Shown: positions 429-49,543 of the stretch, in pieces
Numbering within the stretch: the first letter of the stretch is position 1
Layout: the number at the start of each line of letters is the position of its first letter
NCBI GenBank assembly: GCA_965248055.1
Contig: CBDFIJ010000004.1
Location: 3,232,001-3,296,000 of the forward strand
Direction: 5' to 3'
DNA length: 64,000 nt
DNA from: Candidatus Multivoradales bacterium
GTDB lineage: Bacteria; Acidobacteriota; Thermoanaerobaculia; Multivoradales; JAHEKO01
The notes under the pieces: generated by a model
Told to the model about the DNA's origin: nothing
What the model saw: only the letters and a program-made list of their open reading frames with translations
Database searches by the model: none
Translations under genes and position numbers: made by a program

Positions 429-1268
429 TTGGCGATCACCTTTGACGCCGCACCGGAACTTCAAGAAATCCTGGTTGCCGACGCCTGGCAAACTGGCATG
501 CTGGGCGCCCAGGTTGATTCGACGGTCACCGACCGCATTACGGTTTTCTTTTCGGCGGACAACTCAGAGAGCTTTTCTAAGCTAGCTCTCCCCGCTGGCG
601 CGGTCGAAGTTTCTCGCCGCTGGGTCGATGAGCAGGACTGGCTTCGTTGCTATCGAGAGTCGGTGGCGGCGATAGAGGTTGGTAACACTTGGTTGATTGA
701 TCCTCGTGACCCGACATCAGACCAGACAACCGCTGACTTTGCAGAACGCCGACGGATTCGGGTACCGGCGAGAAGGGCTTTCGGCACCGGAGGCCATGAG
801 AGCACGCGCCTCACCTTGAGGCTTATGGAGGGAGTGCAAGTAGAGGGACGGCGAGTCCTCGACTTTGGCTACGGCTCCGGCGTATTGAGCTTCGCCGCAC
901 TCCACGCCGGTGCCCGGCTTTGCGTCGGACTGGAGTCCGACCCCAGCGCCGGACTTGTGGGGGCGCAAAACCGGAGCCTCAACACCCAAGTGGCTGCACC
1001 GGCTCTGGTAGTTGCCACCGCCACCGCATTGAGAGCGCGGCGTTGGATCGACCTACTCTTGGTCAACGTTCGACCGGAACATTGGCTTGCCCACCTGCCG
1101 CAGCTATCGGATCGGCTCGCCGACAACGCTGAGATTCTCTGCTCGGGGTTTCTGTCAGACGAGTTGGCGCCGTTGATCGAGCGCTTGGGGTCGTGTGGTT
1201 GGGCAGTGGAGCAGTCGATGGTGGAAAATGAATGGATGGCAGTCAGACTTTATTCTGGAGCATCATGA
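429..1268 (+). CDS. prmA: Ribosomal protein L11 methyltransferase
   Basis: AFGTGGHESTRL and VLDFGYGSGVL SAM motif; dnaJ-prmA-rsmE order. Confidence 0.88.
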   Translation: MAITFDAAPELQEILVADAWQTGMLGAQVDSTVTDRITVFFSADNSESFSKLALPAGAVEVSRRWVDEQDWLRCYRESVAAIEVGNTWLIDPRDPTSDQTTADFAERRRIRVPARRAFGTGGHESTRLTLRLMEGVQVEGRRVLDFGYGSGVLSFAALHAGARLCVGLESDPSAGLVGAQNRSLNTQVAAPALVVATATALRARRWIDLLLVNVRPEHWLAHLPQLSDRLADNAEILCSGFLSDELAPLIERLGSCGWAVEQSMVENEWMAVRLYSGAS

Positions 1269-46893: not shown

Positions 46894-47001
46894 TCTTCTA
46901 GTCCAGCCCCACACCAAGACACCCAACCTACCCAGTAGACTTCGGGGTGGCGTCGGAATCAGTTTATTCAAGGTTGTGCGAGATTGGCATAGAGTTAGTT
47001 C

Positions 47002-47463
47002 ATGTCTTTACCCTGGAGTCTTGAAGGGGAGATCGAGATTGAGAAGGTAGGTAGTCCAGCCCTTGTGGCGCAGCGTCTCGTCGAAGCCCTGCGGAGCGAG
47101 AAAGCGGCTCATGTTGAGCTGGACGGACAGAACATCAACTTCATGGCGGGCGCATTCAGATTTGTTTCAAGTTGGAACATTCTTGTCCCGTTCAGGACTG
47201 GCTCAATTACGGTTGCAGGAAATGAAGCTCGTATCGTTCTTCGCTACAAGGGCTCGTTTCGCGAGATGCTAATAGTGTGTTCTTTGATGGCTTCGGTTGT
47301 CCTGTTTTTCTCTGTGATCTCCGCCGTGCAACATGAAGGATCGGTTCTTGAAGCGCTGTTCCTTGGCGTTGTTGCGTGGCTGTGGTTGTACGGTGGAAAC
47401 GCGGCCATCGCCGCATTTTGTTGGCCCAGGTGGCTTGCTAGGACTGCCCGCGGAGAGCACTAA
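47002..47463 (+). CDS. Hypothetical membrane protein (two C-terminal TM segments)
   Basis: 153-aa ORF between REP-like elements. Confidence 0.6.
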   Translation: MSLPWSLEGEIEIEKVGSPALVAQRLVEALRSEKAAHVELDGQNINFMAGAFRFVSSWNILVPFRTGSITVAGNEARIVLRYKGSFREMLIVCSLMASVVLFFSVISAVQHEGSVLEALFLGVVAWLWLYGGNAAIAAFCWPRWLARTARGEH

Positions 47464-47521
47464 GGTGACGTTCCACAGAGCAAGGTGATGCTTCTTCGCT
47501 TCGTAGATTCTCTGTTCGGGG

Positions 47522-48526
47522 TCAATGGTTAATAACGACATTTGGGAAGAGCTTTGTAGCGTCAAAGTCAGTGGCGTGTGTCCAGATTCCATGAATGGCG
47601 TGGAGTAGTTTTCTCATGATGGCGACAATCGCTTGCATGGGTTTTAGTCCTCGTTGTTGGAGACTGAGATAGAAACTTCGACAGTGAGGATTGGCCCTCG
47701 CAGCCGAGAGAGCGGGCATGTAGAGAGCCTGTCTAAGGCGTGAGTTTCCGGTCTTGGAGATTCTTCGTGGTTTGTTGACAGAGGAGCCGGATTCGACCGG
47801 TTTCGGATCGAGTCCGGCATGAGCGACCCATTGCCTAGGGGTGAGCTCTTTGGGCAGCACTGCGAGTTCGGCAAGAATCCGAGATGCGCTCTTGGGTCCG
47901 ATTCCCGGGATACTCAGCAGGAATTGATAACGTATCTTGAGTTTGGTCTGGTTGTTGATGAGTTTGAGTGCCTGTTTGTCGAGCCGATCGATTTCCCGAT
48001 TCAGTACAACGATTTGGCGATTAAGACTTTGGCTTACAGCTGCCGGAATCGTTCTAGAGGCAGATGCAGCATGGAGTCGGTTCTTCTCCTCTGTTCGTTG
48101 TTGAGTCAATGCCAGGATGCGGCGGGTGATGGACCTTAGGGCCAGTTCTTGGTCACCAGGTGGCTGGAACTCTTCAAACGGCATGCGTTGAGCAAACTGA
48201 CAAAGCATTTCCGCGTCGATGCGGTCGGTCTTGGCTCTTTTCATCAAAGCTTCAGCGAAACGGCGAGCAGCACGAGGGTTGGCAACCATGACCTCAACAC
48301 CTGTGGTTTTGCACAGAGTGAAGGTCAGATCTTGACCGTACACTCCGGTGGCTTCCAGGACCGCTTGAACGGGCCGTTCTTGTCTCTTGAGCCAAGCGGC
48401 CAGCTGGCGAATACCGGACGCAGTATTTGCAAACTGTCGCCTCTCAAGCTTGCCTGAGGCAAGCTTGAGACATAGCTCAAAGGACTTGGCGCTGACTTCG
48501 ATTCCGCAGGGCAGTGGCTTCTTCAT
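47522..48526 (-). CDS. IS110 DEDD recombinase
   Basis: GIEVS, LEATG, AKTDRIDA, SIPGIG, ESGSS, ISKTGNSRLRQALY, AIMRKLL; AAGGAG RBS before ATG at 48526. Confidence 0.93.
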   Translation of the reverse strand: MKKPLPCGIEVSAKSFELCLKLASGKLERRQFANTASGIRQLAAWLKRQERPVQAVLEATGVYGQDLTFTLCKTTGVEVMVANPRAARRFAEALMKRAKTDRIDAEMLCQFAQRMPFEEFQPPGDQELALRSITRRILALTQQRTEEKNRLHAASASRTIPAAVSQSLNRQIVVLNREIDRLDKQALKLINNQTKLKIRYQFLLSIPGIGPKSASRILAELAVLPKELTPRQWVAHAGLDPKPVESGSSVNKPRRISKTGNSRLRQALYMPALSAARANPHCRSFYLSLQQRGLKPMQAIVAIMRKLLHAIHGIWTHATDFDATKLFPNVVINH

Positions 48527-48539
48527 CGTTTTCTCCTTT

Positions 48540-48720
48540 CGGTTACACTGTCCCTTCGGCTCCCTGACCTTGGGTAACTCTCGCACCGACCTTGTGAATG
48601 CAGGCTCTAGGGCCTCAGATTCTCTCCGGCGTTCGAGAGGTAAGGCAGGGAGCTGATCTACGTACAGGCTCAGGGCCTAAGGGGCGGGACAGCTTCCCTG
48701 CCGAAGAGACTCATCTCCAC
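48540..48720 (-). ncRNA. Predicted bridge RNA with target- and donor-binding loops
   Basis: Two stem-loops with internal loops; guides CCCGCCCCT/CGTAG match the target and AGAGAATCT/ACAAG match the element's circle junction. Confidence 0.85.
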
Positions 48721-48865
48721 AAACATACAAGGGGAGGGGTTTACCCCCTCCCGTCTTGGGATTCAGGCACACGCCAAAATGCTCCACCTACCCTGGTGAA
48801 ACATCACCTCCAACTGCGATAAGCTGAACCGGCCCGAAAGGGGCCCCGAGACGGGCGAAAGACCT

Positions 48866-49543
48866 ATGCGATCACCACTCAGTTTCTTCCAATCAGCAGT
48901 CGGCAAGAAGACCGTCATGGCGGTTACCGGCATCATGTTGTTCGGCTTTGTGCTCGGCCATATGGTGGGCAATCTCAAGCTCTACTTGGGCGCGGAAAGC
49001 CTCAACCACTACGCGGAATTCCTGCGTGAATTTGGCTATCCGCTGTTGCCGCACATGGCCTTTCTGTGGATTGCCCGTATTGGATTGTTGGCCGCGGTAG
49101 GACTGCACATTTGGTCCGCCTGGGCGGTGACCCGAATGAGCCGCGCCGCACGACCTCACAAATACCTGAAGCGCGAATCGGTGGCCGCGACCTATGCCTC
49201 GCGCACTATGCGCTGGGGTGGGGTGATCCTGATTCTTTTCATCATCTACCACCTGCTGCACTTGACGGTGGGCAACGTCCACCCGGATTTCGTCCACGGC
49301 GAGGTCTACCGCAATCTGATTACCAGCTTGAGCGTTCCTTGGGTGGCGGGCTTCTACATCTTGGCCAATATCTTCCTCGGCATGCACCTATACCACGGCC
49401 TGTGGAGCATGTTTCAGACTCTCGGCTGGTCCGTCGACAAGAACAATGACTGGCGCCGTAAATTTGCCGGTGCTTTCGCCCTACTGGTCACTCTTGGCAA
49501 CCTTTCATTTCCCATCGCGATTCTCACCGGACTGGTTTCATAA
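48866..49543 (+). CDS. sdhC: Succinate dehydrogenase cytochrome b subunit
   Basis: [27 protein letters not shown] heme histidines. Confidence 0.92.

What the first reader, a model, noticed from the sequence alone, without database searches (positions are those of the whole stretch)
48540..48720. Bridge RNA with all four guide segments readable
On the minus strand, stem GGCAGGGAAGCTG/CAGCTCCCTGCC encloses CCCGCCCCT (48680-88; 8/9 to the target left arm CCCTCCCCT) and CGTAG (48658-62; complementary to target CTACG). A second stem encloses AGAGAATCT (48617-25; 9/9 to the element right end) and ACAAG (48591-95; complementary to left-end CTTGT). Both loops share an inner AGGCCCT..GAGCCTG hairpin. 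The mechanism is known from IS621; this is a candidate new programmable orthologue, and it shows a tolerated guide-target mismatch.
Basis: partly seen in the sequence, partly recalled or inferred. Interest (0 to 1): 0.72.

Follow-up and report, generated by a model that had tools for sequence, protein, structure and literature searches.

The report
Bridge RNA of an IS110 element
This is the guide ("bridge") RNA of a small jumping gene of the IS110 family, whose two loops spell out both the element's own ends and its chromosomal landing site; it is a genuine but ordinary new member of a kind of system described in 2024.

Summary
All four guide segments lie at the stated coordinates on the minus strand. 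They sit in the 203-nt left end of a 1,225-bp IS110-family element (48729..47505) whose recombinase (48526..47522) matches both IS110 Pfam domains and the solved IS621 and ISCro4 enzymes. A second, 100% identical copy, a truncated 96% copy and three empty sites fix the ends. The target is CCC(G/T)CCC-CT-ACG, at the foot of a REP-like hairpin; the donor is AGAGAAT-CT-TGTATG. A covariance model built from 55 relatives, without the window, hits 48558..48717 at 104 bits (E 1e-26). Across relatives the flanks match each element's own guides far better than swapped guides. The circle junction would rebuild a TTGACC-17-TATGTT promoter.

The "tolerated mismatch" is not established. The guide matches the other copy's site 9/9, and guide drift after insertion or a second guide variant in the genome explain the window copy equally well.

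Verdict: new member of a known kind. No RNA data were available.

The parts
48732..48752 (-). REP-like GC-rich hairpin GGGAGGGGG-TAAA-CCCCTCCC in the left flank. Its 3' arm is the left target (LT, 48738..48732).
   Evidence: 8-pair stem; 16 strict hairpin loci in the genome.
48730..48731 (-). Left copy of the CT core dinucleotide.
   Evidence: Flank comparison of copies A and B with empty sites L006, L009, L010.
48527..48729 (-). Left end (LE), 203 nt non-coding, starting TGTATG. It encodes the bridge RNA.
   Evidence: one search printed 204 because it counted the A of the ATG.
48722..48727 (-). TATGTT, the -10 half of the promoter that would be completed only in the excised circle.
   Evidence: TTGACC-17-TATGTT, 9 of 12; no sigma-70-like site in the integrated state.
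48705..48718 (-). Possible short 5' hairpin GGAGA-UGAG-UCUCU. It may be cut by the transcription start.
   Evidence: Read. Not conserved in sequence across relatives.
48644..48702 (-). Target-binding loop module: stem GGCAGGG-A-AGCUG / CAGCU-CCCUGCC around the internal loop.
48680..48688 (-). Left target guide (LTG) CCCGCCCCU. 8/9 to the window's site, 9/9 to copy B's site.
48666..48678 (-). Inner hairpin of the target loop, AGGC-CCUGA-GCCU.
   Evidence: pairs 88-120 AU 32 / GC 21; 90-118 CG 40 / GC 13.
48656..48662 (-). Right target guide CGUAG (48662..48658) plus the dinucleotide AU (48657..48656) in the handshake-guide position.
   Evidence: Position by analogy with PMC11208158.
48578..48639 (-). 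Donor-binding loop module: stem CUCUCG-AA-CGCCGG / UCGGUG-CGAGAG around the internal loop.
48617..48625 (-). Left donor guide (LDG) AGAGAAUCU, 9/9 to the right end including the core.
48602..48615 (-). Inner hairpin of the donor loop, AGGC-CCUAGA-GCCU.
   Evidence: pair 179-203 GC 39 / AU 16 / CG 2.
48589..48600 (-). Right donor guide, discontiguous: CAU (48600..48598), bulge UC, ACAAG (48595..48591), complementary to CTTGT+ATG of the left end. Then GU (48590..48589) in the handshake-guide position.
   Evidence: Discontiguous RDG pairing is described for IS621 in PMC11208160 section 7.
48642..48649 (-). 5' strand (CCUGCCUU) of the conserved long-range helix. It overlaps the 3' strand of the target-loop stem.
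48563..48571 (-). 3' strand (AAGG-U-CAGG) of the long-range helix, between the donor loop and the ribosome-binding site.
48533..48537 (-). Shine-Dalgarno AGGAG, 6 nt before the ATG.
47522..48526 (-). IS110-family recombinase, 334 aa: RuvC-like domain plus Tnp domain. Catalytic positions E10, E58, D101, D104, S246.
47520..47525 (-). TTGACC, the -35 half of the circle-junction promoter. It overlaps the stop codon.
47505..47521 (-). Right end (RE), 17 nt, ending AGAGAAT-CT (left donor plus core).
47502..47504 (-). Right target ACG, immediately after the core.

Best explanation
The interval encodes the bridge RNA of a 1,225-bp IS110-group insertion sequence (minus strand, 48729..47505).

Inferred life cycle, by homology with IS621:

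1. The element excises as a circle.
2. Joining the right end to the left end across the single CT core creates a sigma-70 promoter (TTGACC-17-TATGTT).
3. That promoter transcribes the left end and the recombinase gene.
4. The RNA folds into two internal-loop modules.
5. [quoted passage not shown]
6. In the second module, LDG AGAGAAUCU and the discontiguous RDG CAU..ACAAG pair with the circle junction AGAGAAT-CT-TGTATG.
7. The recombinase holds both modules and exchanges strands at the CT core through a serine (S246 by alignment). The dinucleotides AU and GU after the right guides assist as handshake guides.

Shown here:
- the anatomy;
- the ends and the target;
- family-wide conservation and covariation;
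- guide-flank concordance;
- two identical copies in the genome.

Inferred only: transcription, protein binding and recombination activity.
For: Recombinase. It matches PF01548 (2.3e-27) and PF02371 (9.1e-22). It also matches the PDB chains ISCro4 transposase (8.9e-49) and IS621 transposase (1.4e-45) over residues 8-327. Catalytic positions are conserved in 26 aligned relatives: E58, D101, D104 and S246 are invariant; position 10 is E in 21 and D in 5.

Ends. A 100% identical copy lies at G000:C4:3129128-3130385. A 96% copy holding only the left end is L003. Three empty sites (L006, L009, L010) read GGGAGGGGGTAAACCCCTCCC-CT-ACGAAG.

Guides. LTG is 9/9 to copy B's site and 8/9 to the window's. 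The relic L003 has LTG CCCTCCCCT, 9/9 to its own flank. RTG is 5/5, LDG 9/9, and RDG 5/5 plus 3. None of 20,000 shuffles reproduce all four.

Family model. Covariance model R1, built from 55 relatives without the window, hits 48558..48717 at 104.3 bits, E 1.2e-26, over model positions 1-159. The next window hit scores 7.6 bits. The whole genome gives exactly three hits: copies A and B and the relic.

Structure. 19 pairs show double-sided changes, and 0 of 500 shuffles reach the observed values. Slid controls pair at 56% or less.

Programmability across relatives. The right flank matches the element's own RTG 5/5 in 24 of 46 loci and at least 4/5 in 36 of 46. The mean is 4.13, against 2.01 for swapped guides (maximum 2.54 in 2000 permutations). 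The left flank matches the own LTG with mean 4.53/7 (n=36), against 2.34 (maximum 3.11).

Promoter. The circle junction scores 9/12. No sigma-70-like site is found in the integrated state over 47400..48850.

Architecture. The LE is 203 nt and the RE 17 nt, as described for the IS110 group (PMC11208160, passages).

Copy number. In DNA-run contigs the IS body has about twice the flank depth (for example 47.4 against 29.8/27.7), consistent with two copies. These runs may be the source of the assembly, so this is not independent.
Against: No expression data. No RNA run holds the stretch, so transcription, RNA ends and processing are unknown.

Rfam 15 has no matching family, even at E up to 10. This only shows that bridge RNAs of this kind are not in that library.

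The first catalytic acidic residue is E where IS621 has D. This is conservative and shared by 21 of 26 close relatives.

The space between the -10 hexamer and the first stem is only about 20 nt. A 5' stem-loop like that of IS621 is therefore doubtful here.

When the 3' segment is included, the thermodynamic minimum switches to a long-range helix that unfolds the target-loop stem. In the window's RNA the two are nearly isoenergetic (-63.1 against -63.7 kcal/mol).

Left-flank agreement across relatives is only moderate: 9 of 36 loci have 3/7 matches or fewer.

The family test used 55 of 80 fetched loci and does not correct for relatedness.
Confidence: 0.92

Rival explanations
1. The conserved structure is only a cis-regulatory 5' leader of the recombinase mRNA (translation or stability control). 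On this reading it does not guide DNA recognition, and the matches to the ends are incidental.
For: The RNA lies in the 5' UTR of the recombinase gene. A conserved long-range helix between the two-loop region and a segment 40 nt before the start codon exists. No RNA data separate a short RNA from the mRNA.
Against: Guide positions vary between relatives and track each element's own flanks. None of 20,000 shuffles give the four matches. The relic L003 changed its LTG together with its flank. The architecture matches the experimentally defined IS621 RNA point by point. A test for Shine-Dalgarno sequestration in the family was negative: unpaired probability was 0.52 against 0.37 in shuffles, and lower than shuffles in only 12 of 39.
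Confidence: 0.03
2. The 8/9 guide-target match of the window copy does not record a mismatch tolerated at insertion. There are three alternatives:

(a) The window copy inserted with a T-type guide, as the relic L003 still has. Its LTG then mutated T to G, and that reprogrammed element later produced copy B at a G-type site.

(b) A T-type bridge RNA from another copy supplied the target loop in trans.

(c) The insertion was a donor-only 'half-match' event.
For: Copies A and B are 100% identical over 1,258 bp, and B sits in a 9/9 site. The relic L003, 96% identical, carries LTG CCCTCCCCT, 9/9 to T-type sites such as the window's. In IS621 the target and donor loops of one synaptic complex come from two RNA molecules (PMC11208158, passages). 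Half-match insertion is reported in a preprint (10.64898/2026.08.31.748434, abstract only).
Against: Single mismatches are tolerated at reduced efficiency in IS621, and natural targets show 0-2 mismatches (PMC11208160, sections 7-8). Direct tolerance is therefore equally possible. The order of events cannot be read from two identical copies.
Confidence: 0.5
3. In the native transcript the reader's first stem is not the dominant fold. The segment CCUGCCUU (48649..48642) instead pairs with AAGG-U-CAGG (48571..48563). This extends the base of the donor-loop module and leaves the target loop unfolded unless the protein or 3' trimming shifts the balance.
For: The long-range helix is paired in 99.1% of cells. 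It has three covarying pairs: CG to UA in 15 sequences, GC to AU in 6, CG to UA in 2. The change at pair 146-240 also occurs in L038, against its close relatives L022, L028 and L057. Forcing the helix gives lower energy than forcing the target-loop stem in 51 of 57 sequences. The unconstrained minimum holds at least 6 of its 8 pairs in 38 of 57, against the full target-loop stem in 7 of 57.
Against: The outer target-loop stem also covaries at the same two columns. The triples are CGC 41 / UAU 6 and GCG 49 / AUA 2, so both pairings appear to be kept. The long-range helix has no G-U pairs, so it cannot be told apart from a DNA-level inverted repeat. The energies are predictions only.
Confidence: 0.3

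Closest known systems
IS621 bridge RNA and recombinase (Escherichia coli; Durrant et al. 2024, PMC11208160; Hiraizumi et al. 2024, PMC11208158)
   Same: - The RNA is encoded in a long left end, upstream of a RuvC-like/Tnp recombinase, with a very short right end.
- It has two stem-loops with internal loops.
- In each loop the 5' side has the sense of the left arm including the core (9 nt). The 3' side is complementary to the core plus the right arm (5 nt).
- The core is CT.
- The right donor guide is discontiguous.
- There are bulged A residues in both stems.
- The dinucleotides after the right guides are AU and GU, the same letters as the wild-type handshake guides A81/U82 and G166/U167 quoted.
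- The promoter is split across the circle junction.
- The target lies next to a REP-type hairpin.
   Different: - The protein is only distantly related (159 bits, E 1.4e-45).
- The first catalytic acidic residue is E, not D.
- The 5' leader before the first stem is only about 13-20 nt, so the 5' stem-loop is doubtful.
- Only 4 nt (UUAC, 48643..48640) separate the two modules, where IS621 has an 11-nt linker (nt 99-109).
- A conserved long-range helix joins the end of the first module to a segment beyond the second. I did not find it mentioned in the passages I read, and I could not examine IS621's own left end.
ISCro4 transposase (PDB 9t56)
   Same: Best solved-structure match (169.9 bits, E 8.9e-49, residues 7-328). 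It has the same two-domain recombinase.
   Different: Only the protein sequence was compared. I did not see its RNA or any paper on it.
ISPpu10 of Pseudomonas putida (preprint 10.64898/2026.03.19.712850; abstract seen)
   Same: The target is a repeated intergenic sequence in which a GC-rich stem-loop lies 5' of the base-paired target. Here the left target arm is the 3' arm of GGGAGGGGG-TAAA-CCCCTCCC.
   Different: Whether the hairpin itself is a specificity determinant here is untested. Relatedness to ISPpu10 was not measured.
IS1111-group elements / seekRNA type (bridge RNA in the right end)
   Same: Same recombinase family and the same general logic.
   Different: In those elements the RNA lies downstream of the gene in a long right end (PMC11208160 section 12). 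Here the right end is 17 nt and the RNA lies upstream.

Membership tests
IS110-group bridge RNA (IS621 type) | Lies in the non-coding left end, directly upstream of an IS110-family (RuvC-like DEDD + Tnp) recombinase. | tested here: met
   Pfam PF01548 2.3e-27 and PF02371 9.1e-22. PDB IS621 transposase 1.4e-45 and ISCro4 8.9e-49. The RNA lies at 48717..48558 and the ATG at 48526.
IS110-group bridge RNA (IS621 type) | Long left end and short right end. | tested here: met
   LE 203 nt, RE 17 nt. The criterion comes from PMC11208160.
IS110-group bridge RNA (IS621 type) | Two consecutive stem-loops, each with a large internal loop closed by a distal hairpin, conserved with covariation. | tested here: met
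   Minimum-free-energy fold of the 139-nt RNA. On 57 sequences, 19 pairs have double-sided changes and 0/500 shuffles reach the observed values.
IS110-group bridge RNA (IS621 type) | 5' stem-loop before the target-binding loop. | tested here: inconclusive
   Only a 5-pair hairpin is present (48718..48705). It overlaps the expected transcription start, 5-9 nt after the -10 hexamer that ends at 48722. This region does not align across relatives.
IS110-group bridge RNA (IS621 type) | 5' side of loop 1 (8-9 nt) has the sense of the left target including the core. The 3' side (4-7 nt) is complementary to the core plus the right target. | tested here: met
   LTG is 8/9 (window site), 9/9 (copy B) and 9/9 (relic L003 with its own variant). 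RTG is 5/5 at both copies.
IS110-group bridge RNA (IS621 type) | Loop 2 matches the RE-core-LE junction in the same way. | tested here: met
   LDG 9/9. RDG ACAAG 5/5, plus CAU to ATG across a 2-nt bulge.
IS110-group bridge RNA (IS621 type) | CT core shared by target and donor. | tested here: met
   CT is present at both junctions of both copies and once in each of three empty sites.
IS110-group bridge RNA (IS621 type) | Guide positions covary with the flanks across orthologues. | tested here: met
   Own against swapped guides: right target 4.13 against 2.01 of 5 (n=46); left target 4.53 against 2.34 of 7 (n=36). No permutation of 2000 reaches the observed means.
IS110-group bridge RNA (IS621 type) | Handshake dinucleotides after the right guides pair with the non-cognate DNA (positions 6-7). 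| tested here: met
   Read from the sequence. AU (48657..48656) is complementary to AT before the donor core (47508..47507). Of GU (48590..48589), only the G can pair, with the C before the target core. The feature is defined in PMC11208158.
IS110-group bridge RNA (IS621 type) | A sigma-70 promoter is reconstituted across the core in the circular form. | tested here: met
   In silico only: TTGACC-17-TATGTT, 9 of 12. None is found in the integrated state.
IS110-group bridge RNA (IS621 type) | Recognised by a structural covariance model of the family. | tested here: met
   Model R1, built without the window: 104.3 bits, E 1.2e-26, full length. It is a model of this subfamily, not of IS621 itself. 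Rfam 15 gave no hit.
IS110-group bridge RNA (IS621 type) | The RNA is expressed, binds the recombinase and is required for recombination. | not testable with these tools
   No RNA run is listed. DNA contigs show no joints.
IS110-group bridge RNA (IS621 type) | Catalytic residues of the recombinase are intact. | tested here: met
   E10 aligns to the D of GID in the IS621 chain. E58, D101 and D104 are present. S246 aligns to the first Ser of ESGSS. E for D at the first position is found in 21 of 26 relatives.
IS1111-group bridge RNA / seekRNA | The RNA is encoded in a long right end, downstream of the recombinase gene. | tested here: not met
   The right end is 17 nt.

The most novel reading that the evidence does not exclude
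In this subfamily the bridge RNA may be a two-state molecule. The 3' strand of the target-loop stem can pair either with its 5' partner or with a conserved segment beyond the donor loop (48571..48563). The first pairing gives a folded, target-competent loop. The second gives a long stem under the donor loop and an unfolded target loop.

Two lineages changed all three positions together, so both pairings appear to be kept by selection.

A conformer that presents only the donor loop could favour donor-donor (excision) complexes, or supply the donor half of a synaptic complex built from two RNA molecules. The other conformer would supply the target half. That would amount to an RNA switch dividing labour between insertion and excision.
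Probability: 0.2. Interest if true: 0.6.

Novelty: new member of a known kind. Interest (0 to 1): 0.3.

Why it matters
This is a clean natural example of a bridge-RNA system. One genome holds two identical full copies, a truncated relic with a different guide, end remnants and several empty target sites. The ends, core, target and all four guides can therefore be read without experiment.

The recombinase is far from IS621, and its relatives are widespread in soil and sediment metagenome-assembled genomes (Acidobacteriota, Myxococcota, Beta- and Deltaproteobacteria). It adds a candidate orthologue for programmable recombination.

Such orthologues have already been predicted by the thousand (PMC11208160), so by itself it changes nothing in the field.

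The only feature that could be of wider interest is the conserved long-range helix that competes with the target-loop stem.

Tried and rejected
- **Rfam.** An Rfam 15 scan of 47000..49500 at E up to 10 gave only a chance match to a plastid intron model (19.1 bits against a threshold of 53) and no bridge-RNA family.
- **First locus search.** The search for related loci with the single protein found no relative. The allowed second scan, with an alignment of 26 proteins, worked.
- **RNA evidence.** No RNA holder is listed for the stretch.
- **DNA contigs.** Contigs of 4 DNA runs from one sample were laid on 47200..49000. They break at the repeat borders and show no joint, meaning no circle junction and no empty site.
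- **Shine-Dalgarno sequestration.** In the window's RNA the 5' leader UCUCUUCGG can pair with CCGAAAGGAGA. Across 39 relatives with a clear start codon, the SD is not more paired than in shuffles (0.52 against 0.37 unpaired; lower in 12 of 39). Rejected as a family feature.
- **Long-range helix in IS621.** The best E. coli plasmid hit (L100, NZ_CP146668.1) is another IS110 element, not IS621 (3.1e-49 to the IS621 chain). The question stays open.
- **Invalid energies.** The constrained energies printed at the end used coordinates one base off and are disregarded. One search repeats the comparison on alignment columns.
- **Chance matches.** A further AGAGAATCT lies at window 1132..1140, and a third AGAGAATCTACG at C4:3312130. 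Both sit in unrelated sequence.
- **Literature on the helix.** One search for an alternative fold or translational role of bridge RNAs returned nothing relevant among the 10 listed of 532. This does not show that the helix is unpublished. Figures and supplements of the papers were not visible to me.
- **Earlier findings.** The search of earlier findings near this place returned nothing.
Full report
**What is there.** On the minus strand, the interval lies in the non-coding stretch directly upstream of a 334-aa open reading frame (ATG 48526, stop 47524..47522). That protein matches both Pfam domains of IS110-family transposases: PF01548 at 2.3e-27 and PF02371 at 9.1e-22. Among solved structures it matches the ISCro4 transposase (8.9e-49) and the IS621 transposase (1.4e-45) over nearly its whole length. 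In an alignment of 26 close relatives, E58, D101, D104 and S246 are invariant. Position 10, which aligns with the aspartate of the GID motif of the IS621 chain, is E in 21 and D in 5.

Every coordinate checks out.
- LTG CCCGCCCCT is at 48688..48680.
- RTG CGTAG is at 48662..48658.
- LDG AGAGAATCT is at 48625..48617.
- RDG ACAAG is at 48595..48591.
- Stem 1 is GGCAGGG-A-AGCUG with CAGCU-CCCUGCC.
- Each loop is closed by an AGGC/GCCU hairpin.

An RNA from 48716 to 48578 folds by minimum free energy into exactly this shape. None of 20,000 dinucleotide shuffles of the interval carries all four matches.

**Ends and target, mapped independently of the guides.** The genome (3.4 Mb, 4 contigs) was searched with the element's DNA. 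It holds the following.
- A second copy, 100% identical over 1,258 bp, at C4:3129128-3130385.
- A 96% identical relic with only the left end and 11 bases of the gene (L003).
- A 72-bp right-end remnant (L004).
- A 17-bp left-end remnant (L005).
- Three unoccupied sites (L006, L009, L010) reading GGGAGGGGGTAAACCCCTCCC-CT-ACGAAG.

Comparing these gives the element as 48729..47505: 1,225 bp, left end 203 nt, right end 17 nt. CT is present on both sides of each copy and once in each empty site. The window copy sits in CCCTCCC-CT...CT-ACGAAG and copy B in CCCGCCC-CT...CT-ACGGAG.

The guide matches follow from this.
- The LTG is 9/9 to copy B's site and 8/9 to the window's.
- The RTG is 5/5 to both.
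- The LDG is 9/9 to the right end.
- The RDG pairs with CTTGT and, across a two-base bulge, with ATG of the left end. This is the discontiguous pattern described for IS621 (PMC11208160 section 7).
- The relic L003 carries LTG CCCTCCCCT, 9/9 to its own flank.

The target's left arm is the 3' arm of a small REP-like hairpin family with 16 strict loci. On one strand these are followed by CTACG in 4 cases, CTACA in 3, CTACC in 1 and CTTGT in 2. Six unoccupied CCCNCCCCTACG sites exist in the genome.

**Relatives.** The closest proteins in the large protein collection are 61-66% identical, on contigs of 1.1-2.8 kb. A scan of species-representative genomes with an alignment of 26 proteins gave 507 confirmed relatives, of which 80 loci (43-52% identity) were kept. 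Most come from metagenome-assembled Acidobacteriota/Terriglobia, Myxococcota and Beta- and Deltaproteobacteria.

Selection of sequences went as follows.
- 73 of the 80 loci had 260 nt upstream.
- 11 of those lacked a simple 3' anchor motif and were left out. These are more divergent left ends, or left ends with large insertions.
- 7 exact duplicates were removed.
- The remaining 55, plus the window and L003, form alignment A2.

The alignment shows the same architecture throughout. Stems and hairpins are conserved, the donor guides are conserved, and the sequence is variable exactly at the LTG and RTG positions.

**Structure statistics.** None of 500 column shuffles reaches the observed pairing or covariation score. 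Sliding the partners by 1-3 columns drops pairing to 33-50%.

**Covariance model.** Model R1 was built from the 55 relatives only. In the window it finds 48558..48717 on the minus strand at 104.3 bits, E 1.2e-26, full length. The next hit scores 7.6 bits. In the whole genome it finds three places: the two copies (104.3 bits) and the relic (90.6 bits). Rfam 15 itself has nothing for this region.

**Programmability across relatives.** Guides were read from the alignment by position; 53 of 56 rows could be parsed. Junctions were located from donor-side motifs only, which succeeded at 36 left and 46 right junctions.

| Matches to the element's own guide | Number of loci |
|---|---|
| Right target, 5 of 5 | 24 |
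| Right target, 4 | 12 |
| Right target, 3 | 5 |
| Right target, 2 | 3 |
| Right target, 1 | 1 |
| Right target, 0 | 1 |
| Left target (non-core), 7 of 7 | 2 |
| Left target, 6 | 10 |
| Left target, 5 | 8 |
| Left target, 4 | 7 |
| Left target, 3 | 5 |
| Left target, 2 | 2 |
| Left target, 1 | 2 |

The right-target mean is 4.13, against 2.01 for guides swapped between loci (2000 permutations, maximum 2.54). The left-target mean is 4.53, against 2.34 (maximum 3.11). Relatedness is not corrected for, and the junction finder is crude. Even so, the signal is what a guide RNA predicts and what a mere leader does not.

**Promoter.** The integrated locus has no sigma-70-like site by the scan's criteria (0 found in 47400..48850). 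Joining the right end to the left end across one core gives TTGACC-17 nt-TATGTT, 9 of 12. The -35 hexamer overlaps the stop codon and the -10 begins two bases into the left end. This is the arrangement reported for IS110 circles (PMC11208160 section 5).

**Comparison with IS621.** I read passages of PMC11208158 and sections 7 and parts of 5, 6, 8, 10 and 12 of PMC11208160. These describe a 5' stem-loop, a target loop module (nt 34-98), a linker and a donor loop module (nt 110-177). They also describe flipped-out A residues in the stems, a 9-nt LTG, a short RTG, and handshake dinucleotides A81/U82 and G166/U167.

The window's RNA has the two modules, bulged A and AA in the stems, a 9-nt LTG and a 5-nt RTG. 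AU and GU sit in the corresponding places. AU is complementary to the AT before the donor core, and the G of GU can pair with the C before the target core.

It differs in having at most a 5-pair 5' hairpin, which the transcription start may cut. It also has only four bases between the modules.

**An addition: a competing long-range helix.** RNAalifold on A2 did not choose the outer half of stem 1. It paired CCUGCCUU (48649..48642) with AAGG-U-CAGG (48571..48563), a segment beyond the donor loop.
- This helix is paired in 99.1% of cells.
- Three of its eight pairs change on both sides, in 15, 6 and 2 sequences. One such change, in L038, goes against its close relatives.
- At the two columns that vary, the 5' partner, the shared strand and the 3' partner change together: CGC in 41 against UAU in 6, and GCG in 49 against AUA in 2, the last being the window and its relic. 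Both pairings therefore seem to be maintained.
- With the 3' segment present, the long-range form is lower in energy in 51 of 57 sequences. It dominates the unconstrained fold in 38 of 57, against 7 for the full target-loop stem. In the window's RNA the two are within 0.6 kcal/mol.

I could not find this described. That rests on one literature search and the passages read; figures and supplements were not visible to me. I also could not inspect IS621's own left end. A family-wide test of ribosome-binding-site sequestration was negative. The helix has no G-U pairs, so an RNA-level reading is likely but not proven.

**The 'tolerated mismatch'.** The window copy's site differs from its guide at one position: guide G, target T, LTG position 4. 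Three histories fit equally well.
- Insertion happened despite the mismatch.
- Insertion happened with a T-type guide, as the relic still has. The guide then mutated T to G, and the element then transposed to the G-type site of copy B.
- A T-type RNA guided the insertion in trans.

Natural 0-2 mismatches are already documented, and half-match insertion is reported in a preprint of which I saw the abstract. The locus therefore does not demonstrate tolerance.

**What is missing.** No RNA run holds the sequence. DNA contigs from one sample show about twofold depth over the element body and no joints; they may be the very data the assembly came from.

**Verdict.** This is a real bridge RNA, correctly read by the first stage. 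It is a new member of a known kind, with a possibly interesting alternative fold.

Noticed in passing
window 48642..48649 with 48563..48571 (minus strand); alignment A2 columns 140-147 with 239-247: A conserved long-range helix links the end of the target-loop module to a segment between the donor loop and the ribosome-binding site. It is paired in 99.1% of cells and has 3 covarying pairs. It is mutually exclusive with the outer half of the target-loop stem, which covaries at the same columns.
   Followed up: partly
L003 = G000:C4:3093616-3093855 (minus strand), outside the window: An orphan bridge-RNA copy, 96% identical, comprising the left end plus 11 bases of the gene and then unrelated sequence. 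Its left target guide has T where the full copies have G, matching its own flank 9/9. It also differs in the donor guides and has one broken stem pair. Model R1 still scores it at 90.6 bits.
   Followed up: partly
L004 = G000:C4:433804-433875 and L005 = G000:C4:2623788-2623827: Solo end remnants beside REP-like hairpins. L004 holds the last 72 bp of the element, joined on its left directly to CCCCGCCC of a hairpin. L005 holds the first 17 bp of the left end, after CCCCTCCC-CT. Both look like products of deletions or aberrant recombination at target-like sites.
   Followed up: no
G000:C4 about 3127495-3131518, around copy B; also L009/L010 at 3063778 and 3064072: The REP-like hairpins cluster. 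Five strict copies lie within 4 kb around copy B. Two identical empty target sites lie 294 bp apart within a duplicated stretch.
   Followed up: no
window 48701..48709 with 48532..48542 (minus strand): In the window's own RNA the leader UCUCUUCGG can pair with CCGAAAGGAGA, which contains the Shine-Dalgarno sequence (fold). The family as a whole shows no such sequestration.
   Followed up: yes
L100 (NZ_CP146668.1 30046-32008), E. coli plasmid IS110 element: A distant relative (34% identity). Its left end also begins CT-TGTATG. By eye, its segment CCUUUCAC, which overlaps the start of the 5' strand of the apparent second (donor-loop) stem, can pair with GUGAAAGG overlapping the Shine-Dalgarno sequence. 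This comes from a single sequence and was not tested.
   Followed up: no
contigs C1-C3 of G000: Three small contigs (14.8, 16.7 and 28.4 kb) have 39-43% G+C, against 57% for the main contig. They may be plasmids, phage or contamination.
   Followed up: no
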